64,000 bases of DNA from Naegleria gruberi (taxonomy: Eukaryota). The notes under the pieces are model-generated. The model ran no database searches and had not been told where the DNA came from. It was given only the letters and a program-made list of their open reading frames with translations. The stretch lies in the NCBI GenBank assembly GCA_000004985.1, contig GG738874.1; one strand, given 5' to 3'. Below are positions 9,974 to 47,889 of the stretch, in pieces. The translations under genes were made by a program, and so were the position numbers. Within the stretch, counting starts at the first letter, position 1. Every line of letters starts with the position of its first letter.

Positions 9974-10933
9974 GCTTTTATGTTCCTGCCTATTTTATAC
10001 TACCACCCAAATTCTTTCCTTCCCTCTTTTCAATTTTAAATGTTCTTGAAGCTTTGAACCTTAATAAAGAAGAACATCATGTAATCTAAGATCAAGTTCT
10101 CAGTCATTGACCAATTCCGCTCAATTAAATAAACAAGGATCCTACATTCCTGTTCAGAGTCGCTTAAGAATTTGGCGCCAATCGACAAAACCCAAATACA
10201 GAAGCGAGAAATGCCAATCTCGTCTTGTGAACGCTTTGATATGTAAATATTAATGCCAAGGCGCGTTGTGTTTCGCCTCAATGAAAAAAGATGAATCCAA
10301 CCCCATCCTCATCATCGATGACACCTCACAATATTCATCATACAGCCAATAACAGTGGTGGTGGAAGTAGTAGCACACCAATAACATCAATTGGTGGAGG
10401 AGGTAATAATAATGGTGTTTTTCCATTTCTGATGAGTAGTAATTCAAATTCAAGTTACAGCAACAGCAATACGAATAATAATTGTACAAAGAATGGCCAA
10501 CAACAACAGGGAGTAGTGGTGACGAATAGTGGACAATTTCACTCCCTATCCAGTATTAATTCAATTCATTTGACTCAAAATCTTCCTCAACAAACACCTC
10601 TTTCTCCCCGAATAACAAATAATAGTAATCATCGCGAACAATTGCAATTAACAGCTGCTCTTCATACCAGTACAGTATTTTCACCATCAAGTGTTACCGA
10701 GAAGACTCATGATGGTGACAATTCTTCGATATTTAATGGATCTGCCTCGAGCACAGTTCTCTCAAAATCAGCATTCAACACTGTTGTCAATAAGGTAAAA
10801 AATCATTTCATGAGTTTTACCTTATTCATGCAAGATAATGAAAAGAAACAGAGCAAAATGGATAGAATTATGATGTTTGGAATGTATATGTATATGATAT
10901 GGGTAGGAATATGGATTTCAACATTGAGTCCTT

Positions 10934-13900
10934 ATGATTATCATTATGGAGAGTGGGGATCATGGTTCTTTGCAGTTGTGTTATGTGGTTGTTTTCCTGT
11001 CGTGTCCAATGAGTTTTGCCATGTCCACCTTTATAGATTGCAAGTGGATCAATATGGAAGGGTTTTCTCAAACCTCCTCTACACGAATGATTCTGAATAG
11101 ATTCAATACATTTTTTCAGGAGGAGAGATATTGCTATACGAGTACCAATATTGTCTTTCTAGTGATATTTCTGGTCACACATTTTCTGTTATCACTAATT
11201 TGTGCCTTCTCCACAACTGTCCTCTCCAATTCCCACCCACTCTCAAAAACTGTTTTTGTTGCAGATGCTAGTTTTGTTCCTGCCTTAATGTTTATGAGTA
11301 ACTTGATGGAGATTTTATTTCACTTTATTATTCCATCTAATTATGCATTTGTGAGATCGATCATTCACATAATCATGGCCTTAATATTTATAATATTCCT
11401 CTTTAAAAACATTACATATATGAGGAGAACAGACAATTCGATAATATCAGGATTTGGATTTGCCAAGTTGGGAGCAAGTGTTGGAAAGCTGATATCATTC
11501 TTTGTTAATAGAGATAATGTCAATAATACTCAAAATTACAACACGTATGGAATTATCATGACATGTGTGACAATAGGATTGGTAATATTTGGGTTTATTA
11601 TAGGGTTCATTGTAATGGAAATTTACACCAGATATATTGTTTATACCATACGTAAGGTATTGGAGAATATTATTATGCTAGCTGATAGATCTCAGTACTA
11701 CGAGCAAAGTAATGATGATTTGGATATGCAAGATAATCAAGAGAGTCAAATCATTGTTTATGAGAAAATAATTGAGAGGGAAGCACCAATGTTATACCAC
11801 AAAATTGACTCTGAAAAGAGAATGAAATTTCTGGTATATTATTTGAACTTTTGTATGCATAGGAATGTCGATGAGTTGATGAATAGCTCTCACCCCTCCG
11901 CCCATAAGAAGGTTTCCAGAATTGAATCAATTGGAATGACAGATACACATGTCGCTTTATGCTTTATCAAGGGTCTTTTTGGAGGTTCTACTTCGATTGT
12001 TACAAATGTCGGCCTCATGTTAACTTGTAGCTCACTTGTTGCTTACTACTGGCCTTCTTCAGCAGAGTCAGTTAACACAACATTATTTGCAAATAGCTTG
12101 TTAAGAAAAGCTCTCAAAAAGCAGCCATCATTTATTCAAAGATTCTTGATAGGTATCAAGATTAAGGAAATTGAGGTGAACGCTGATGAGAAAACTCGAC
12201 TCATGTTTGAGGCGAAACATCTGGTGTCAAAGTTAGAAAGAAGACAACAAGAGTTGAAAGCTCTTCATAGAAATTTCTGGAAAGAACTAACCCATGAAGT
12301 GGTCAATTATGAAAAAATTGAATCAATCATATTAAGGGCAAGTGAATTATCAAGTAAATGCGAAACTCACTACGAAAACCTCAGGCTTACATACCGTCAT
12401 GATAAATCACTATTGAGATCACATGCCCAATTCCTTGAGACCTGTAGATTTGATCCAGATATTGCTCACGAAATGTACAACGAAGCAAGCCTTATGGAGG
12501 AAGAAGATTCTGCCAACCATGCAATGAAATCCAAAAGTAACTTGATGGCAACGGTCAATATTGCAGAAAGAAGGAAAATGTGGAGGGATCAAGCAAAAAA
12601 CAGACCTAACAATAGAGGAATGGCTAATGGAAATGTGAAAGTGGTTCCAGTGAATGGAAATAAGGATATGGTAAGAGGTGATTCCACAAGCTCCATCGAG
12701 GGAAAAGAGGGACAAGAAGAATATGGACACCACTTTGAAATGATAGACCCAAGAACATCGCTCAGTTATTCAGATCAGTTACCATTCGATGGTGTTGAAA
12801 ACTTTGGAAATGTGCGAAAGGAAACAATATTTAGAACTTCACTTTCTGTACCTCACAGACACACTTTTCAACTTGGTGGATTTATTGCTTTCTTTATCTT
12901 GTCTGTATGTCTTTTAATATCTTCATCCATTCTGAGTGGTCTGATATCCTATGAGGTTACGGATGATTTACAAATTGTAAAGACAGGATGCATTCCAACT
13001 TCCTCTATAGTTCAAATGATTACAAAATTGAGATCCCTCAAGTTTGCTAATAGTCTTTACTCTCAAAAATCTTGGCCCACTGAAATGACATCGCTTGGGT
13101 TTAAAAACTTGACCGATTTCAATACCAAGATGTGGACAGATTTTAAACAATATTATTCATATTTTATTGCTCTAAGAGATATGAGTATGAAAGATAGAGT
13201 CCTAACACCAACCATGTATGATGAGTTCCATGAAAGATACTACCCAATGCTGACACCTGAAATATCATCTGGAAGCGAAATTATATTATACAATTCTACC
13301 AAGGCAGTCAATATTTCAATTGCTGATATTACCAACTTGGTAATCAAGTACTCTGAAGACTTGATAAGAACTCGTGATTCAGATCATACGTTTACTAATT
13401 ATGGCTTTATGTTCTTTTATGATAACCATGATTACATTACCAAAGCTTTTAGCCAATTTTGCTCTGTTCTTATTGATGAATCCAAACATGAAGCTTCACA
13501 GGTAGATATCGCTTATATGGCCTTCCTTATTGTAGCCCTTGTGGTTTATCTTCTCTACGGAACTGGTTATATCATTTACACTCACATTTCCCTTAAATTT
13601 GTCAAGTCACAAATCAAACTCATTGAGCATGAAATTTCTAAAAACATAGCTGGTCGTTTATTCCATGATTTAGAAAAGAAAGTGAGTGATGACGTAACTG
13701 TTCGTCTTCCAAAATCCAAGTTATTGAGACCAAAGAATATCATTATCATGCTGAGTATTTCATTAATGATTTTAATGGCCGTATGTGCTGGATTGCTTTA
13801 CTTTGGAAATAGATACAATGCAGAAAAGATTGCTTCCTCTTTTATTTCATTTAGACATGCCACAAACAGTATGTTTTATGTCCAGAGAATAGCCTTTGCT

Positions 13901-15802
13901 GTCACTGAACAATTTACAAATAAGGTTTTGGGAGGTTCATTGCAATCAAGTGAAGAACTATATTTAATGAACCAAGATTTAGAGGAGAATGTTCAAAGTC
14001 TGAGAGAGAACTGGAATTTGTGTTTATACGGTGACTCAAAAGAAGTTTATACCTCCATAATGAATAGAGGAATTTTAGGCCTGTTTTCTGAAGTAGATAA
14101 TCTAATAATTGGAGAATCTAACTGTACATTCTCAGAATTCAGGTATTCATATAATGTTTCTTCAAAATGTTTCCTTAGTTTGAATTCTCTCCTCACCGAT
14201 TACATGTCTTTGTCTACTCAGTTCAACAGTGTGTTAAAAGTCAAAAATATCAATAGCAGTGACATGGACATTGTGGATCAGTATGCTCAAGCTACATTCC
14301 TCTCCAATATGATAACAATGGATGTAGTCGAGATTTCCTCTGTAATTTCAGAAAATTACTCTAACCCAGCTTTTGAAATATTGATCACTTTCTCTATTGT
14401 TGGATCTGTGTCCATTTTGCTATTCTCGTACTTGATACATTTGTATCTTACAAAATATTGGAATTCCATTCAAGAAATGAGATTATATTTCAATTATATC
14501 AGTGTGGAAACACTTGATTCAAATGAAGCATTGAGAAATTATTGTATCCACCATTTGGTTAATGACACCTTCTTGCTAAAGAGGAGAAATATGAACAATA
14601 CATCCCTTCAAGATTCCAAAGTGAGAAGCTTATTGAACGCTTCAGTAGATGGTGCAGTCATGTGTTCTGGGCAAACCTGTGATATTGATATTTTCAATCC
14701 TGCTGCTCAAAGAATGTTTGGTTACAATCAAACTGAAACTGTGGGAAGGCCACTTTTTGATTTGTTTGATTCGTTGAGTCAGCAATCTATTAGGAAAATG
14801 GTATCAGATATGCTTCAAGGGGCTTCTGAAGCTCAATCAAAAGGAGATGCTCTCGATGCTGAATGTGTAAGAAAGAATCAAACAACTTTCCCTGCAAGAG
14901 CCAATATTTTCCTAACCAAACATGATAACAAACCAATCATTACCATATTTATCAAGGATATAACATCAGAGAAGAAACATTTAGCCCTCATTGCTGAAGA
15001 AAAGAAGCACTCTGAAGAACTGTTATTGAACATTTTGCCTGATGCTGTGGCTTCTAAACTCAAATCTGGTGAAACATTTATTGCAGAAAAGTTTGCTGAT
15101 ATCACTTGCTTCTTTTCTGACATGGTAAACTTTACAAGAATTAGTTCTGACATGAATCCTTCTGAGCTAGTTTTGATGTTGAATTTTATTGTAAATGGTT
15201 TTGATGAATTGATAACCAAGTATAATTTAGAAAAGATCAAGACCATTGGTGATGCTTATTTTGCTGTTGGAGGTCTTCATGGTCTGAATGCACAATCAGA
15301 TCACCCCGAAAGAACTCTTAAATTTGCAATTGATACCTACCAAGTTGTCTCCAATTATAATTCCAAGAGTGGAAAACCAATGAGAGAACAAATTAACATT
15401 AGAATTGGAATGCACACTGGAAGTGTTGTGGCAGGAGTTATTGGAAAACTCAAGTTCGCTTACGATTTATGGGGAGATACTATCAACATGGCATCAAGAA
15501 TGGAATCGAATTCAGTGAATGGAAGGATTCAAATTAGTAGAACGACCTATGAAAGAGTGTATGATCTTGGTTTTTCATTTGAAGAGAGAACGATCAATGT
15601 TAAGGGAAAGGGAGAAACTTTAGCTTATTTGTTAGATTCCAAACATCATACCTCAGCTATTGTTAATCATGAGGTGATTGAAGACAGTGAGGAGATTGAA
15701 TCGGTTGTCTTACCTCCAAGGGACACTCTTGAAGTTATTCCACTGAGAGAATCAGCTTCCAATCACACAGACCTTGTAGATTTAGCTCCCTCCACTCCTT
15801 AA
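10934..15802 (+). CDS. Large multi-pass membrane class III nucleotidyl cyclase with a PAS sensor domain; predicted adenylyl cyclase; 5' end uncertain
   Basis: Multiple hydrophobic helices occupy the N-terminal half and the middle of the protein. A PAS-like segment (SVDGAVMCSGQTCDIDIFNPAAQRMFGYNQTETVGRPLF) precedes the catalytic domain. The CYCc domain carries FADITCFFSDMVNF, KIKTIGDAYFAVGG and GMHTGSVVAGVIGKLKFAYDLWGDTINMASRMES. The specificity residues are Lys (KIKTIGD) and Asp (YDLWGD), which predict ATP use. The upstream S/N-rich ORF 10291..11100 overlaps in another frame. It has a TM-like segment, a candidate GTAAAA donor near 10795 and candidate acceptors near 10853 and 11117. The true 5' exon structure is therefore unresolved. 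Confidence 0.75.
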   Translation: MIIIMESGDHGSLQLCYVVVFLSCPMSFAMSTFIDCKWINMEGFSQTSSTRMILNRFNTFFQEERYCYTSTNIVFLVIFLVTHFLLSLICAFSTTVLSNSHPLSKTVFVADASFVPALMFMSNLMEILFHFIIPSNYAFVRSIIHIIMALIFIIFLFKNITYMRRTDNSIISGFGFAKLGASVGKLISFFVNRDNVNNTQNYNTYGIIMTCVTIGLVIFGFIIGFIVMEIYTRYIVYTIRKVLENIIMLADRSQYYEQSNDDLDMQDNQESQIIVYEKIIEREAPMLYHKIDSEKRMKFLVYYLNFCMHRNVDELMNSSHPSAHKKVSRIESIGMTDTHVALCFIKGLFGGSTSIVTNVGLMLTCSSLVAYYWPSSAESVNTTLFANSLLRKALKKQPSFIQRFLIGIKIKEIEVNADEKTRLMFEAKHLVSKLERRQQELKALHRNFWKELTHEVVNYEKIESIILRASELSSKCETHYENLRLTYRHDKSLLRSHAQFLETCRFDPDIAHEMYNEASLMEEEDSANHAMKSKSNLMATVNIAERRKMWRDQAKNRPNNRGMANGNVKVVPVNGNKDMVRGDSTSSIEGKEGQEEYGHHFEMIDPRTSLSYSDQLPFDGVENFGNVRKETIFRTSLSVPHRHTFQLGGFIAFFILSVCLLISSSILSGLISYEVTDDLQIVKTGCIPTSSIVQMITKLRSLKFANSLYSQKSWPTEMTSLGFKNLTDFNTKMWTDFKQYYSYFIALRDMSMKDRVLTPTMYDEFHERYYPMLTPEISSGSEIILYNSTKAVNISIADITNLVIKYSEDLIRTRDSDHTFTNYGFMFFYDNHDYITKAFSQFCSVLIDESKHEASQVDIAYMAFLIVALVVYLLYGTGYIIYTHISLKFVKSQIKLIEHEISKNIAGRLFHDLEKKVSDDVTVRLPKSKLLRPKNIIIMLSISLMILMAVCAGLLYFGNRYNAEKIASSFISFRHATNSMFYVQRIAFAVTEQFTNKVLGGSLQSSEELYLMNQDLEENVQSLRENWNLCLYGDSKEVYTSIMNRGILGLFSEVDNLIIGESNCTFSEFRYSYNVSSKCFLSLNSLLTDYMSLSTQFNSVLKVKNINSSDMDIVDQYAQATFLSNMITMDVVEISSVISENYSNPAFEILITFSIVGSVSILLFSYLIHLYLTKYWNSIQEMRLYFNYISVETLDSNEALRNYCIHHLVNDTFLLKRRNMNNTSLQDSKVRSLLNASVDGAVMCSGQTCDIDIFNPAAQRMFGYNQTETVGRPLFDLFDSLSQQSIRKMVSDMLQGASEAQSKGDALDAECVRKNQTTFPARANIFLTKHDNKPIITIFIKDITSEKKHLALIAEEKKHSEELLLNILPDAVASKLKSGETFIAEKFADITCFFSDMVNFTRISSDMNPSELVLMLNFIVNGFDELITKYNLEKIKTIGDAYFAVGGLHGLNAQSDHPERTLKFAIDTYQVVSNYNSKSGKPMREQINIRIGMHTGSVVAGVIGKLKFAYDLWGDTINMASRMESNSVNGRIQISRTTYERVYDLGFSFEERTINVKGKGETLAYLLDSKHHTSAIVNHEVIEDSEEIESVVLPPRDTLEVIPLRESASNHTDLVDLAPSTP

Positions 15803-15882: not shown

Positions 15883-16752
15883 TTAGAAAAGTGTAGCCAA
15901 AACAAAAAGTACCATAAAGCTTAACATTCCAATCATGTTACTTGATGGAGCCGCATTTCTTGCTGGCAAAATGGCAGAATCATAGACAGAGTATGAGCTC
16001 AAACTGACACCATCCATATCACCCTTTGTGGCAATTCCAGCATCAACCCATGATTTTCTGAGACATGAATAGTATTTGCTGTAGGCATATCTACATCTAG
16101 TAAATAATGAGCTGTCCTCATCAACATATTGATATGAATCAGTTCCAACCATATCAGAACTTGCTGAGACACCCAAATTATAGATACATGCATATACATC
16201 ATAAAAAGACCCGTAACACTTGGCAGCACATTTTCCACCACTTGTTGAGCTAATTGCCTTTCCACCACATGCACAATAACTTCCTGTAGGACAAGAAACT
16301 GTATCAGAGCATTTCAAACCAGACGCATCAGCACATTTACCCTCAGAGGAACAGTAAGCACTGTAACATTCTGTATCCTTCTTACAACTTCCACCCAATG
16401 AAGTTCCATAAAGTCTTTTACACTTATTATCAATACAATCAACCATACCTGAGCTAGTGTAGGCGCAATCACTTGCAACAATACAGAATTCACCATAGGT
16501 AGCAATTCTTTGACAGGTGGTTGAAGTATCACCATTAGAAACTTGACGACAAACCAATCCAGAAACACAAGGAACGAAATCAGAACTAATTGCAGATTTA
16601 ACACAAGGTTGACTATATTGAATTTGCTCAACACAAGTAGCAATAGTCAATGAAGTATATTTACAATACAATCCATTATCACACACAACCTTCTTTGAAG
16701 TATCAGACAATGCACAATTTTCTCCTTTTTTAGCAATAACTTTTTGAATACA
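15883..16752 (-). CDS. Cysteine-rich protein with a C-terminal GPI-anchor-like hydrophobic tail (paralogue of the adjacent gene)
   Basis: About 40 Cys are regularly spaced (C..G..C......C modules). The C-terminus reads SSNMIGMLSFMVLFVLATLF. An in-frame ATG at 16752 is immediately preceded by TAA. The track start at 16710 is TTG. No N-terminal signal peptide is found in this exon, so an unrecognised upstream exon or a link to the neighbouring gene is possible. Confidence 0.5.
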   Translation of the reverse strand, partial: CIQKVIAKKGENCALSDTSKKVVCDNGLYCKYTSLTIATCVEQIQYSQPCVKSAISSDFVPCVSGLVCRQVSNGDTSTTCQRIATYGEFCIVASDCAYTSSGMVDCIDNKCKRLYGTSLGGSCKKDTECYSAYCSSEGKCADASGLKCSDTVSCPTGSYCACGGKAISSTSGGKCAAKCYGSFYDVYACIYNLGVSASSDMVGTDSYQYVDEDSSLFTRCRYAYSKYYSCLRKSWVDAGIATKGDMDGVSLSSYSVYDSAILPARNAAPSSNMIGMLSFMVLFVLATLF

Positions 16753-16850: not shown

Positions 16851-17330
16851 TTACTTATTACAATCATAGAAAGTCTTGGAATTTGAACCAGAATCTTCAA
16901 ATTGACAATTTTCACCAACTCGTCTCGATTTCTCATATCCATAATAAGTACACTTGCTATTGATACATTTTGGACCGTATAATTGTGCAACATTTGCTGA
17001 AGGAAGACTTTCTCCAAGACACTGACTATCACTCACACACGAATCTCCAACCATTCTAAACTTTGGAGTACATTTCTGATTATAACAATCCATGGAACCA
17101 AAGATACAATCCTTGCTAGTGATACAAGTAGTACTCGATCTCTTTTCCTTGTATAAAGTTGAGAATAAATTACACTTGTTATTGTAATTGACCCAGGCAA
17201 CTGGACATTGTCCACTAGTTGGAATGTAGGTTTCAGTTTCAACGTACAAGTTGCTGGTACATGATTCTTGCACGGAGAGTGATACTAGGCAGAGCAGAGC
17301 TGCTATTGTGAAAAGATGGAGTGTTGACAT
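16851..17330 (-). CDS. Secreted cysteine-rich protein (signal peptide plus Cys-rich modules)
   Basis: The ATG at 17330 is preceded by an A-run. The signal peptide is MSTLHLFTIAALLCLVSLSVQ. About 20 Cys are spaced like those in the downstream paralogue. The stop TAA overlaps a GTAAGT-like sequence. Confidence 0.55.
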   Translation of the reverse strand: MSTLHLFTIAALLCLVSLSVQESCTSNLYVETETYIPTSGQCPVAWVNYNNKCNLFSTLYKEKRSSTTCITSKDCIFGSMDCYNQKCTPKFRMVGDSCVSDSQCLGESLPSANVAQLYGPKCINSKCTYYGYEKSRRVGENCQFEDSGSNSKTFYDCNK

Positions 17331-17850
17331 TTTTTTTTTGTTAAATAAAAAGACTTGCTTGACATGATGACATTTTGAGTTCAATATATATCATAGAATA
17401 GTAAAATGGAGGGTGTTAGGGATATTTGAAGGTCATGAGACTTTTTTTGATTGTTTGTCGTTAGAAAAGGTAACCCAAGATTCGAATCGAATTTACAAAC
17501 TCTTTCTGTTACTCACTGTGAGAATTGAATTTACAGTTTTTGTTGAAGCAAATTTTCTTGACAATGAATACCAACTACGATTAAGTTGCAGATGAAGAAG
17601 GATGACCTTGTGGAATTTTATTTCAAAAAAAAATTAGCACAAATTAGGGAACTTGCTTGGAATATTTCTATAAAAATGGTGTAGAATTAAACTCCAAGAA
17701 TATGATTTTGAATCCATTCCTTATATTATTTCAAAACATTTCACATTGTGTGAAGTATTTTGGAACTTTTAAGAACTGTCATCCATCATCAGATGATAAA
17801 AAAATTAAAAATCAAATCAAAAAAATAACAATAATCTGTAAAACAACAAA

Positions 17851-45512: not shown

Positions 45513-46837
45513 TTATTCTTCAATCTTGGCAACACGTGCAGTACCACGTCCAGCTCTCTTTGGCTTGGAGAATTTCAAAGAAGAGTCAGACTTTGGAGGG
45601 TGAATATACTTGACGAGGAATTCGTGAGTCAAATCTTCAACATCTGAAATTTCCAAACTAGCTTCAAGCTTCAAAACACCAGATGAGGTAGCAGTTTGAA
45701 CTACGTGACCCTTACTGGCACTGGCTAACATTCTTTGTTTGACCTTGGATTTAGTTGGGCAACTATAGATGAAAACAGTCTTTCCTGAATTTCCTTGATT
45801 TTCTTCATGTTCATATTGGAAGTGGAAGAAAATGTAACGTGGTTCAGAATCAGAAATATTTTCCTTCAATTCTTCAACACTAATAGCATTGTTTCCAGTA
45901 CGTTCGTTTGAAAGAACAATAATTTCCTTTTCAGTGTCAATCTTCAAAACAACCATCAATGATGTACCCTTTTCTAAATTAGAAAGAGCTCTCTTGGCAG
46001 ATTCTTCAAATGGGAAAGAAACACCACGTGAAGCTCCACCGCTACTACCGCTATCAGAAGATGATGATGATGTAGGTTGAGTGGTTGGAGACTTTGACTC
46101 GGCATCCTTTTCAATTTGGTCAAAAGCTTCCTTTTCTTCCATCAATTTTTGTCTTTCTTGTTCAGTGTATAATTCAATGTCATGAATGTGACGTTGTGAT
46201 TTGTGAACAAAGGAAAAGTTTTGATATTTCAAATCATCAACACAAACTGTGTGATAATCTCCAGCCCAAATATTAGCACCATAAAGTGAGTTGGAAAAAC
46301 CAATTTGTGCCTTTAATCCAGCCATAGATGAAGAGTACAACATCTTTTCACGAACCTTTGCTCTCTCTGGAACATACCAAATCAACAACCATTCATAATT
46401 TTGATTTTGATCTGAAACTGTTGTATCTAAACGGAAGAAGAAGTAACAAGGAGCCAAAGGTTTCTTTGCAACACTTTCAGACATGGCATTATAATCAGAG
46501 GAAATATCAGAGAGTGGATGGGTTTCAACAAGATCCATGATTGGAGGTTCATGATCCAAGAGAATACGTACTTTAATCCATCTGATTTTATCCTGTTCGG
46601 TAAAGGCAACACTTGATGAAGATGATGAAAGAACAGAATCAGAGGCTGATTTAGCACGTAAGAAGGCAGATAAAGCTTCGTTTGTAAGTTCAATTCCTAT
46701 TATTATAAATAATTATTCATTCAACAAAGATGATTAAATCATCACATTTTCATCATCAAATGACGGCAAGAGTTTAGAGTTTCAAAAGAAAGATTTTTTA
46801 AAAACTGAAAAAATTTCCACCTACCTGTCTTGGCCAT
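45513..46837 (-). CDS. Twinfilin (two ADF-H domains); join(46837..46825,46696..45513)
   Basis: Two ADF-homology domains are present (WLLIWYVPERAKVREKMLYSSSMAGLKAQIG and YIFFHFQYEHEENQGNSGKTVFIYSCPTKSKVKQRMLASASKG). The track ORF starts at TTG. A 13-nt first exon (ATG GCC AAG ACA G) is followed by a GTAGGT donor, a 128-nt intron and the acceptor aataatag. The joined N-terminus reads MAKTGIELTNEALSAF, resembling twinfilin MSHQTGIQASEDVKEIF. Confidence 0.75.
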
Positions 46838-46907: not shown

Positions 46908-47330
46908 TTATTGTTGGACAGGTTGTTGGGTAAAGCTTTCAACAGAGCTCATAACATTAAGGCGATTAGAGTTTAAGTTTTCTTTAGCTAGTGGACTTTC
47001 GTGATGTTTCTCCTTCAATAAATAGGGTTGAGAAAGTCCTTTTCCTTTCACTTCAACCATTCTCTCTTCAAACTCAAATAAATCATAAACTCTGTAGGTA
47101 GATCTGGAAATTTGAATTCTTCCTGGATGACTTGCTTGAATGTAAACCACTCACACAGAAATAAGCATCTCCAATGGTCTTTATCTTGTCAACCAAGTGA
47201 ATTTCAGTCAACTTGTTAAATCCTTGAACAATTAAATTCAATATTTGAATTCAAAATTTGGACCAGTTCACTTGGTAATGTTGAACTCCGAGCTGTAAAT
47301 CCAACCATATCACTGAAAATACATTGTTTT
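46908..47330 (-). pseudogene. Decayed fragment of a class III adenylyl cyclase catalytic domain
   Basis: On the minus strand three frames successively match the C-terminal CYCc domain of the cyclase at 15.1-15.6 kb. The matches are DMVGFTARSSTLPSELVQILN (then stop), KIKTIGDAYFCVSGLHS, and GRIQISRSTYRVYDLFEFEERMVEVKGKGLSQPYLL. Compare DMVNFTRISSDMNPSELVLMLN, KIKTIGDAYFAVGGLHG and GRIQISRTTYERVYDLGFSFEERTINVKGKGETLAYLL. The fragment carries frameshifts and a deletion of about 100 codons. Confidence 0.75.
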
Positions 47331-47358: not shown

Positions 47359-47889
47359 TCACCTCCTCACAACTGCTCCACTTCTACATTGATATAATTT
47401 CAAAGATTGTACTATTTTTCCAAAATGTGAAAGAAATCTCTTTCTGATTTTTGCATCATGTTCCATTATTGCATAATTATCACCACCAGATGAAATATCA
47501 TAAATTCTCCTCTTCAAATAAGGTCCAATAATTTCGAATAATACAACCAAACTCTTTCTTGGATAGAAAATCATCAAGGTTTGATTCGGAGTGTGCACAA
47601 CCTTTGTAATTGGATCCACAAATTCCTTTCCTCTATTAAAGTACTTCCGCCTGTGACTTGCAATGTTTGACCTCTTGGTATTGAAATATCGGGATTGATT
47701 ATTGTCATCAATTTGTAAACTGGCAATATAATTGAACATGAGTTTTTGTTGAATAGTTTGATGACCACAACATGTTGCTATCAGACAAGGATCCTCTTTG
47801 AAAAGAGATGAGAAGTATGTCCACGGTAGATATTCAAAAATATGACCAATAATTTCCGAAGGGAGCACCTGATTCATTGTTGTGACCAT
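47359..47889 (-). CDS. F-box protein
   Basis: The N-terminal LPSEIIGHIFEYLPWTYFSSL fits the F-box consensus (LP.EIL..IF..L). The length is 176 aa. Confidence 0.55.
   Translation of the reverse strand: MVTTMNQVLPSEIIGHIFEYLPWTYFSSLFKEDPCLIATCCGHQTIQQKLMFNYIASLQIDDNNQSRYFNTKRSNIASHRRKYFNRGKEFVDPITKVVHTPNQTLMIFYPRKSLVVLFEIIGPYLKRRIYDISSGGDNYAIMEHDAKIRKRFLSHFGKIVQSLKLYQCRSGAVVRR

What the first reader, a model, noticed from the sequence alone, without database searches (positions are those of the whole stretch)
10291..15802. Giant polytopic PAS-sensor adenylyl cyclase with unresolved 5' exon(s)
The 1622-codon ORF combines at least 10 predicted TM helices, a long cytoplasmic helical region, a PAS domain and a single CYCc domain. 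The Lys/Asp specificity pair predicts ATP as substrate.

Its annotated Met (10934) lies inside a stretch that reads better in the overlapping upstream S/N-rich ORF (10291..11100), which contains a TM-like segment MYMYMIWVGIWISTLS. A GTAAAA donor at about 10795 and acceptors at about 10853 and 11117 (ttttttcag) suggest one or two short introns join the two ORFs.

If joined, the protein gains an N-terminal low-complexity domain of about 170 aa.
Basis: partly seen in the sequence, partly recalled or inferred. Interest (0 to 1): 0.5.

Follow-up and report, generated by a model that had tools for sequence, protein, structure and literature searches.

The report
Naegleria receptor cyclase gene, 5' deletion
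This is one copy of a large Naegleria family of membrane receptor-type adenylyl cyclases, and its two overlapping reading frames are the halves of a single intron-less gene split by a frame-shifting deletion of about 176 bases, not exons joined by introns.

Summary
The window is Naegleria gruberi. The big ORF is NAEGRDRAFT_68736, and its GenBank model starts at 11675, not at 10934.

- There is a 1622-codon ORF with about 10 membrane helices, a cytosolic TmcB-type TPR region and a PAS domain.
- It has one class III cyclase domain with all six catalytic residues, including the Lys/Asp pair that predicts ATP.
- It overlaps an open 269-codon S/N-rich ORF in another frame.

The splicing interpretation does not hold. 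A profile of 22 relatives matches frame 1 up to nt 10980 and frame 2 from nt 10982. Fifty-nine profile positions are missing between them (an NYPxTLSL motif, membrane helix 2, a loop and the start of helix 3). Every relative has this segment, and it occurs nowhere else in the window.

One deletion of about 176 nt (3n+2) explains both the gap and the frame shift. The proposed GTAAAA donor and ttttttcag acceptor lie inside conserved coding sequence.

As assembled, the full-length protein cannot be made. I could not decide whether this is a young null allele or pseudogene, an N-terminally truncated enzyme, or an assembly fault.

Interest is low to moderate. The most useful by-product is a physical fusion of a TmcB-like module to an adenylyl cyclase.

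The parts
10291..10980 (+). 5' half of the ancestral gene, in frame 1. It holds an S/N-rich low-complexity N-terminus (about 185 aa), a conserved amphipathic helix (KVKNHFMSFTLFMQDNEKK), membrane helix 1 (MMFGMYMYMIWVGIWISTL) and the YHYGEWGSWFFAVV motif. As assembled this frame runs on, out of register, to the stop at 11098-11100.
   Evidence: ORF listing. The family profile matches nodes 8-119 and ends at nt 10980, E 9e-20. Alignment with 22 relatives. ATG 10291 is the first ATG after the in-frame stop at 10282-10284.
10981..10981 (+). Deletion junction. One nucleotide stands where relatives have 59 codons: NYPxTLSLDxxPY, membrane helix 2, the SSK...K loop and the start of helix 3. The inferred loss is about 176 nt (3n+2), which shifts the frame by one.
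   Evidence: Profile nodes 120-178 are absent: frame 1 ends at 10980 and frame 2 begins at 10982. All 22 relatives have the segment. No other piece of the 64-kb window encodes it, and the window has no N. In the model of an intact relative, the blocks of ten residues covering this segment have mean pLDDT 86-95.
10934..10981 (+). The first 16 codons of the 1622-codon ORF (MIIIMESGDHGSLQLC). This is the out-of-frame reading of the conserved frame-1 sequence PYDYHYGEWGSWFFAVV, not ancestral coding sequence.
10982..11626 (+). Frame 2: membrane helices 3-8 of the TmcB-like N-terminal domain, including the ecto-loop FIDC...LNRF...C and the RRxxNS motif.
   Evidence: The family profile matches nodes 179-399, E 2e-67. 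tblastn with the N. lovaniensis relative starts at 10982.
12209..12514 (+). Cytosolic TPR_TmcB repeat region (aa 426-527), followed by a coiled-coil and low-complexity linker.
   Evidence: Pfam PF25474, 53.3 bits against a cut-off of 27. Helical repeats in the model of a relative.
12872..13579 (+). Membrane helix 9, first all-helical ectodomain, membrane helix 10.
13739..14449 (+). Membrane helix 11, second all-helical ectodomain, membrane helix 12.
14621..14965 (+). Cytosolic PAS domain (aa 1230-1344). It is closest by sequence to the FixL haem-PAS, but the haem-ligand histidine position is Ile.
   Evidence: Pfam PAS_9 56.5 bits and PAS 25 bits. phmmer against PDB: FixL, E 6e-7. In the printed alignment FixL 'rsrHdsy' faces 'qqsIrkm'.
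15083..15637 (+). Class III cyclase catalytic domain (aa 1384-1568) with D1396, K1436, D1440, D1511, N1518 and R1522. It is preceded by a transducer helix (EEKKHSEELLLNILPDAVASKLKSGE).
   Evidence: Pfam PF00211, 174.5 bits. Residue-level alignment to AC9 C1 and C2. Positions.
11675..15802 (+). Extent of the public gene model NAEGRDRAFT_68736 / XP_002676046.1 (1375 aa). It omits helices 3-8 and everything upstream.

Best explanation
10291..15802 is one ancestral, intron-less Naegleria gruberi gene. It encodes a member of a genus-wide family of receptor-type adenylyl cyclases.

Family architecture, in order:
- a low-complexity N-terminus;
- an 8-helix TmcB-like membrane domain;
- cytosolic TmcB TPR repeats;
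- two helical ectodomains, each flanked by two membrane helices;
- a PAS domain, a transducer helix, and one class III catalytic domain.

The break. In this sequence the gene is interrupted at nt 10981 by a single deletion of about 176 nt. The deletion removes membrane helix 2 with its flanks and shifts the frame by one. That is why the 5' part appears as a separate, overlapping 269-codon ORF.

Consequences (inferred):
- Translation from ATG 10291 would stop at 11100. The full-length enzyme cannot be made from this sequence.
- The event is young, a fault of the assembly, or tolerated, because both halves are still open and the downstream part shows no extra decay.
- The most likely status is a recent null allele or young pseudogene.

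How an intact family member would work (inferred):
- It would act as a homodimer forming two symmetric ATP-to-cAMP sites, since all six catalytic residues sit in one domain.
- Activity would be set through the PAS domain and transducer helix by signals from the ectodomains and/or the TmcB-like module.

Shown versus inferred. Shown here: the domain content, the catalytic residues, the homology in two frames and the missing segment. Inferred: the deletion as a single event, the expression status, dimerisation and signal flow.
For: Identity. P0001 is 100% identical and named N. gruberi NAEGRDRAFT_68736.

Family. 123 proteins match at E<=1e-3, 46 of them at E<=1e-30. Those looked up are mostly Naegleria and Willaertia, and query residue ~17-20 aligns at residue ~150-215 in most of them.

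The break:
- Profile against three frames: frame 1 matches nodes 8-119 to nt 10980 (E 9e-20), frame 2 matches nodes 179-399 from nt 10982 (E 2e-67), and nodes 120-178 are absent.
- The multiple alignment shows the gap in this gene only.
- The missing segment is nowhere else in the window, and there are no Ns.
- The N. lovaniensis relative is uninterrupted here. The N. fowleri orthologue of that relative, P0007, has the same continuous N-terminus.

No sign of long decay:
- Both ORFs are far longer than chance allows.
- The rate of departures from conserved family columns is 6.6%, within the family range of 1.4-12.3%.

Catalysis. The six catalytic residues are shown.

Structure. Models have pLDDT 82 for both the N-domain of an intact relative and the ectodomain region. 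The deleted segment lies in the confidently modelled membrane bundle.

Family turnover. The same window holds a dead cyclase-domain fragment of this family.
Against: - No independent N. gruberi reads, second assembly or transcripts could be reached. The deletion may therefore be a fault of the reference assembly or belong to one haplotype only.
- The intact 1606-codon downstream frame is also what one expects if that part is still expressed and selected.
- The exact deletion length is inferred from a protein profile, not from an ancestral DNA sequence.
- The closest relatives are only about 40% identical. A lineage-specific loss of helix 2 combined with a separate 1-nt change cannot be formally excluded.
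Confidence: 0.75

Rival explanations
1. One reading: one or two short spliceosomal introns (donor GTAAAA at 10795; acceptors near 10853 and/or at 11119) join the upstream ORF to the big ORF in frame.
For: The strings exist. The pair 10795 to 11119 is 325 nt and gives an open in-frame join...NTVVNK|EERYCY.... Short introns do occur in Naegleria.
Against: - This 'intron' would contain 62 codons in frame 1 and 46 codons in frame 2 that align with conserved parts of 22 relatives: TM1, YGEWGSW, FIDC and LNRF.
- The homologous stretch in N. lovaniensis is one continuous ORF.
- Real introns seen in the relative start GTAAGT, whereas candidate donors here match at most 4 of 6 positions.
- Splicing cannot supply the 59 missing residues.
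Confidence: 0.03
2. Assembly or cloning artefact. The organism has an intact gene of about 1895 codons, and the reference sequence lost about 176 nt at this point.
For: Both halves are perfectly open and show no extra decay. That is exactly what an artefact would look like. Public models of this family are often imperfect: the truncated model here, and the Mem_trans fusion in N. lovaniensis.
Against: There are no Ns or gaps in the window. From general knowledge, a clean 176-nt loss in a multi-fold Sanger consensus is uncommon. No second N. gruberi copy or haplotype of this gene is in the protein collections searched.
Confidence: 0.2
3. Gene fission with retained function. After the deletion the downstream frame is expressed from an internal start (ATG 10934, or later ones such as 11675) as a 10-helix cyclase lacking helices 1-2. 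The upstream ORF yields a separate 269-aa S/N-rich single-pass protein.
For: - The downstream frame is intact over 1606 codons with all catalytic residues.
- Losing helices 1 and 2 together keeps the native orientation of helix 3 onward. This follows from the even helix count in the family models.
- The public model also uses an internal start.
Against: There are 19 ATGs between 10291 and 10933, so a transcript from the native promoter would not reach the internal start by scanning. No evidence for an internal promoter was found. Helices 1-2 are conserved in all relatives.
Confidence: 0.15
4. The frame is corrected at the RNA or ribosome level: a +1 shift at nt 10981 gives a 1836-aa protein that simply lacks helix 2.
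For: Skipping the single base at 10981 joins the two homologous halves exactly.
Against: GTG-T-TAT is not a known slippery or shift-prone site (general knowledge). A protein lacking one membrane helix would invert the topology of everything downstream and put the TPR region outside. There is no precedent in the relatives.
Confidence: 0.02

Closest known systems
N. gruberi paralogues NAEGRDRAFT_81665 (P0006) and NAEGRDRAFT_73946 (P0140), and N. fowleri FDP41_007387 (P0137)
   Same: The same colinear architecture from the N-terminal helix to the cyclase domain, at about 39-42% identity. Together they form the sister clade in a neighbour-joining tree.
   Different: They have the 59-residue segment with membrane helix 2 and one continuous frame. 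The window gene lacks it and is frame-shifted.
N. lovaniensis C9374_007412 (P0002) and its N. fowleri orthologue FDP41_001627 (P0007/P0129)
   Same: P0002 is 35% identical over 97% of the 1622-aa ORF. The N-terminal ORF in the N. lovaniensis DNA aligns with the upstream frame of the window.
   Different: They are not syntenic with the window. They carry three short introns in the cyclase domain that the window gene lacks. The N. lovaniensis model is wrongly fused to an upstream Mem_trans gene.
Dictyostelium TmcB (tiny macrocysts protein B), Pfam PF25474
   Same: The cytosolic TPR region matches the TmcB TPR profile above the curated cut-off. [quoted passage not shown] 2005, Mech Dev 122:733).
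   Different: From my own knowledge, TmcB has no cyclase or PAS domain. I could not test whether its membrane region is homologous to the 8-helix domain here.
Class III adenylyl cyclases with solved structures (mammalian AC9, AC8 and AC5; chains named only 'Adenylate cyclase', e.g. 5o5k)
   Same: The catalytic domain scores E 1e-45 to 1e-61 with conserved metal, substrate and transition-state residues. A transducer helix precedes it.
Bacterial periplasmic four-helix-bundle and NIT sensor domains (NasR NIT, PilJ, PcaY, NarQ, Tsr)

Membership tests
Class III nucleotidyl cyclase (PF00211) | Catalytic domain profile match above the curated cut-off | tested here: met
   174.5 bits against a cut-off of 21.9, aa 1384-1568, profile positions 3-182 of 183.
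Class III nucleotidyl cyclase (PF00211) | Two metal-binding Asp, plus transition-state Asn and Arg | tested here: met
   D1396 and D1440 align with the AC9 C1 aspartates. N1518 and R1522 align with AC9 C2.
Class III nucleotidyl cyclase (PF00211) | Lys/Asp substrate pair (ATP) rather than Glu/Cys (GTP) | tested here: met
   K1436 in KTIGDAYF and D1511 in FAYDLWGD align with the AC9 C2 Lys and Asp.
Class III nucleotidyl cyclase (PF00211) | cAMP-forming activity as a homodimer | not testable with these tools
   Inferred only from all six residues being present in one domain.
PAS domain | PAS fold profile match | tested here: met
   PAS_9 56.5 bits against a cut-off of 27; PAS 25 bits against 22.6.
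FixL-type haem PAS sensor | Proximal histidine that ligates haem (His200 of B. japonicum FixL) | tested here: not met
   In the phmmer alignment the FixL 'rsrHdsy' histidine faces Ile of 'qqsIrkm'.
TmcB family (PF25474, TPR_TmcB) | TmcB TPR-repeat profile match | tested here: met
   53.3 bits against a cut-off of 27, aa 426-527.
TmcB family (PF25474, TPR_TmcB) | Homology of the polytopic membrane part to Dictyostelium TmcB | not tested
   No Dictyostelium sequence was retrieved. The profile search returned only two family members, both already in hand.
Naegleria TmcB-like/PAS receptor cyclase family | Colinear match to the N-terminal family profile in one reading frame | tested here: not met
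   Nodes 8-119 match in frame 1 and nodes 179-399 in frame 2. Nodes 120-178 are absent.
Naegleria TmcB-like/PAS receptor cyclase family | Colinear match from helix 3 to the C-terminus | tested here: met
   A single tblastn alignment, 10982-15703, against P0002 residues 689-2197. Full-length alignment and tree.
Spliceosomal intron at 10795..11119 (or 10795..10853) | Donor like those of real Naegleria introns (GTAAGT) | tested here: not met
   GTAAAA matches 4 of 6 positions. The three introns seen in the relative all start GTAAGT.
Spliceosomal intron at 10795..11119 (or 10795..10853) | Interior is non-coding | tested here: not met
   The interior aligns with conserved protein segments of 22 relatives, in frame 1 and then in frame 2.
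Spliceosomal intron at 10795..11119 (or 10795..10853) | Spliced junction in RNA | not testable with these tools
   No transcript data were reachable.
Four-helix-bundle / NIT extracytoplasmic sensor domains | Fold match beyond generic helical bundles | tested here: inconclusive

The most novel reading that the evidence does not exclude
The family this gene belongs to is a natural fusion of a TmcB-like module (8 membrane helices plus TmcB TPR repeats) to a PAS-regulated adenylyl cyclase. Read as a 'Rosetta stone', it suggests that stand-alone TmcB of Dictyostelium, a genetically defined regulator of cAMP signalling with no known mechanism, acts by directly sensing for or regulating an adenylyl cyclase. 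It also suggests that the Naegleria proteins are ligand-gated cyclases with two extracellular four-helix-bundle sensors. For this locus in particular, the deletion may have produced a topology-preserving, helix-1/2-less variant that is still expressed.
Probability: 0.25. Interest if true: 0.5.

Novelty: new member of a known kind. Interest (0 to 1): 0.3.

Why it matters
For annotation, the public model of NAEGRDRAFT_68736 is truncated, and the locus should be flagged as frame-disrupted or re-sequenced rather than modelled with introns.

For biology, Naegleria carries at least 81 cyclases (PMC9928731). This window shows turnover in that family directly: one copy with a fresh 5' lesion and one decayed catalytic-domain fragment.

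The architecture of the family is uncharacterised. It has a TmcB-like domain, two helical ectodomains, a PAS domain and a cyclase. This links the enigmatic Dictyostelium TmcB proteins physically to cAMP synthesis. If the fusion is functional, it gives a testable idea of what TmcB does.

Tried and rejected
Searches for independent evidence on this locus, all empty:
- Exact-sequence look-ups of the 1622-aa ORF, the 269-aa ORF, the public model P0001 and the paralogue P0006 in public assemblies, including run-level assemblies, found nothing. No independent reads or transcripts were obtained.
- A chimeric frame-1 plus frame-2 query against the 5.8-billion-protein index returned nothing, probably because S/N-rich words filled the candidate list.
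- A profile of N-domain fragments returned only two family members already in hand.
- Metagenome scans by protein and by an exact 23-mer next to the junction found nothing.
- A paper search for the locus tag and accessions found nothing.

Analyses that were uninformative:
- Codon-usage scoring of the overlap region did not discriminate between the frames.
- Foldseek against PDB gave no match at E<=0.001 for the ectodomain model.
- The AlphaFold-database library was not available.

Ideas considered and rejected:
- A short intron restoring the frame between 10980 and 10982. There is no room for one, and no GTAAGT-like donor.
- The missing segment lying elsewhere in the window, for example through an inversion or a separate exon.
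- A FixL-type haem sensor for the PAS domain. The histidine is not conserved.
Full report
**Source and identity.** The window is AT-rich (about 35% G+C). The big ORF is 100% identical to a Naegleria gruberi predicted protein, identified as NAEGRDRAFT_68736 / XP_002676046.1 / UniProt D2VIN1. That public model is only 1375 aa and begins at MLADRSQ. This is residue 248 of the ORF, nt 11675. The 'annotated Met' at 10934 is therefore simply the first ATG of the open frame.

**The observation.** With a stop frequency of 0.074 per codon, neither length is attainable by chance.

Pfam finds three things in the big ORF:
- a cyclase catalytic domain, aa 1384-1568, 174.5 bits;
- a PAS domain, aa 1242-1344, 56.5 bits;
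- a TmcB-type TPR region, aa 426-527, 53.3 bits.

Alignment with the two catalytic halves of mammalian AC9 shows all six functional residues in the one domain. These are D1396 and D1440 (metals), K1436 and D1511 (adenine-specifying pair), and N1518 and R1522 (transition state). The ATP prediction is sound. A single complete domain implies a homodimer; this is inference.

By sequence the PAS domain is closest to the haem PAS of FixL (E 6e-7). However, the haem-ligating histidine aligns with isoleucine, so its ligand is unknown.

**The family.** An exhaustive HMMER search with ORF residues 1-1199 found 123 relatives, 46 of them below E 1e-30. Those looked up are N. gruberi paralogues (locus tags 81665, 73946, 72081, 71278, 61738, 71755, 60042), N. 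fowleri, N. lovaniensis and Willaertia magna. More distant matches over the TPR region come from the jakobid Andalucia and a green alga.

In nearly all full-length relatives, ORF residue ~17-20 aligns at about residue 150-215. The relatives therefore have an N-terminal part that the 1622-codon ORF lacks.

**What joins the two ORFs.** The best-scoring relative in the first search, N. lovaniensis C9374_007412 (P0002), is mis-modelled as a fusion with an upstream Mem_trans transporter gene through a 590-nt 'intron'. In its DNA an uninterrupted ORF starts at L001:12311. It reads ...IKVKNELLNFLYMMQNNHRQKGMKPFLIFLLSYSWNFWIWIWMPVLSATDFHYGQWGSWLLNVLNYPVTF... This aligns with the C-terminal part of the window's upstream ORF (...NKVKNHFMSFTLFMQDNEKKQSKMDRIMMFGMYMYMIWVGIWISTLSPYDYHYGEWGSWFFAVV). 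Its N. fowleri orthologue has the same N-terminus.

A multiple alignment of 22 relatives, and a profile built from them and run against the three forward frames, give a sharp picture:
- Frame 1 matches profile nodes 8-119 and stops at nt 10980 (E 9e-20).
- Frame 2 matches nodes 179-399 and starts at nt 10982 (E 2e-67).
- Nodes 120-178 are missing. These 59 residues cover the NYPxTLSLDxxPY motif, membrane helix 2, the SSK...K loop and the first residues of helix 3.
- Every relative has this segment.

One nucleotide stands where 177 are expected. A single deletion of about 176 nt (3n+2) therefore explains both the gap and the frame shift. The missing piece is not encoded anywhere else in the 64-kb window, and the window contains no Ns.

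**Why not introns.** An intron is extra DNA; here DNA is missing. The specific sites also fail:
- The GTAAAA at 10795 encodes the V-K of the conserved KVKN.
- The ttttttcag ending at 11119 encodes F-F-Q within the conserved LNRF...C ecto-loop.
- The pair 10795 to 11119 is arithmetically in frame (325 nt). However, it would excise helix 1, the YGEWGSW motif, helix 3 and the FIDC loop, all of which show coding conservation.
- The three genuine introns visible in the N. lovaniensis relative are 45-55 nt and all begin GTAAGT. No GT in 10291-11097 that can give an in-frame join matches that hexamer at more than 4 of 6 positions.

**Structure and topology.** An AlphaFold model of the intact N-domain of a relative (pLDDT 82, pTM 0.79) shows eight membrane helices followed by the TPR repeats. 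The deleted segment falls in blocks with mean pLDDT 86-95.

The intact family therefore has 12 membrane helices, with the N-terminus, TPR, PAS and cyclase on the cytosolic side. Three consequences follow by inference:
- Removing helix 2 alone would invert everything downstream.
- Starting translation in frame 2 just before helix 3 would preserve the native orientation.
- 19 ATGs lie between 10291 and 10933, so such a product would need its own transcription start.

**Age and status.** The downstream part shows no excess of departures from conserved family columns: 6.6%, within the family range of 1.4-12.3%. Both halves remain open. The gene is a divergent N. gruberi paralogue, about 40% identical to its nearest relatives, with no one-to-one orthologue in the sample.

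These facts fit three readings: a recent deletion (null allele or young pseudogene), a truncated but still used enzyme, or a fault in the reference assembly. I could not reach any independent N. gruberi reads, haplotype or transcripts to decide.

**Comparison with what is known.** The catalytic mechanism is that of class III adenylyl cyclases. The gene belongs to the large Naegleria cyclase repertoire ('at least 81 cyclases', PMC9928731). I found no paper describing this architecture or this locus.

The TPR region ties the family to Dictyostelium TmcB. [quoted passage not shown] 2005). The physical fusion of a TmcB-like module to a cyclase in Naegleria is a suggestive lead, not a demonstrated functional link.

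**Verdict.** The idea that the two ORFs belong together is right. The splicing mechanism is wrong: the join is a frame-shifting deletion. The finding is an ordinary, damaged member of a known enzyme class within an uncharacterised, lineage-expanded family. Interest is low to moderate.

Noticed in passing
window 46990-47330, minus strand: A relic of about 340 nt of a class III cyclase catalytic domain of the same family. It reads CIFSDMVGFT..., ...DKIKTIGDAYFCVSGLH... and GRIQISRSTYRVYDLFEFEERMVEVKGKGLSQPYLLKEKHH in three different frames, and about 78 residues are missing, including the YDxWGDxxNxASRMES part. It is a dead fragment lying between a twinfilin/cofilin-like gene (45513-46559, minus strand) and ORF 47359-47889 (minus strand).
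   Followed up: partly
L001 10001-12527 (N. lovaniensis PYSW02000029.1): The public model C9374_007412 (2222 aa) fuses a Mem_trans (PF03547) transporter gene to the cyclase gene through a predicted 590-nt intron. The cyclase ORF has its own ATG at L001:12311, and the N. fowleri orthologue (1714 aa) lacks the transporter part.
   Followed up: yes
window 11675 (start of the public model) against 10291/10982: The GenBank/JGI model of this gene (1375 aa) starts at an internal Met. It omits six conserved membrane helices that are open and homologous in the same frame.
   Followed up: yes
window 12872-14449: Two tandem ectodomains, each flanked by membrane helices, are predicted with high confidence as helical bundles. 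They resemble bacterial NIT and four-helix-bundle sensor domains, which is an unusual receptor layout for a eukaryotic cyclase.
   Followed up: partly
window 15883-16710 and 16851-17384, minus strand: Two adjacent Cys-rich ORFs (275 and 177 aa) have hydrophobic N-termini and no Pfam match. They may be secreted or surface proteins, and possibly paralogues of each other.
   Followed up: no
L001 17020-17460: The cyclase domain of the N. lovaniensis relative carries three 45-55-nt GTAAGT...AG introns. The N. gruberi gene has none over the same domain, which indicates intron gain or loss within the family.
   Followed up: partly
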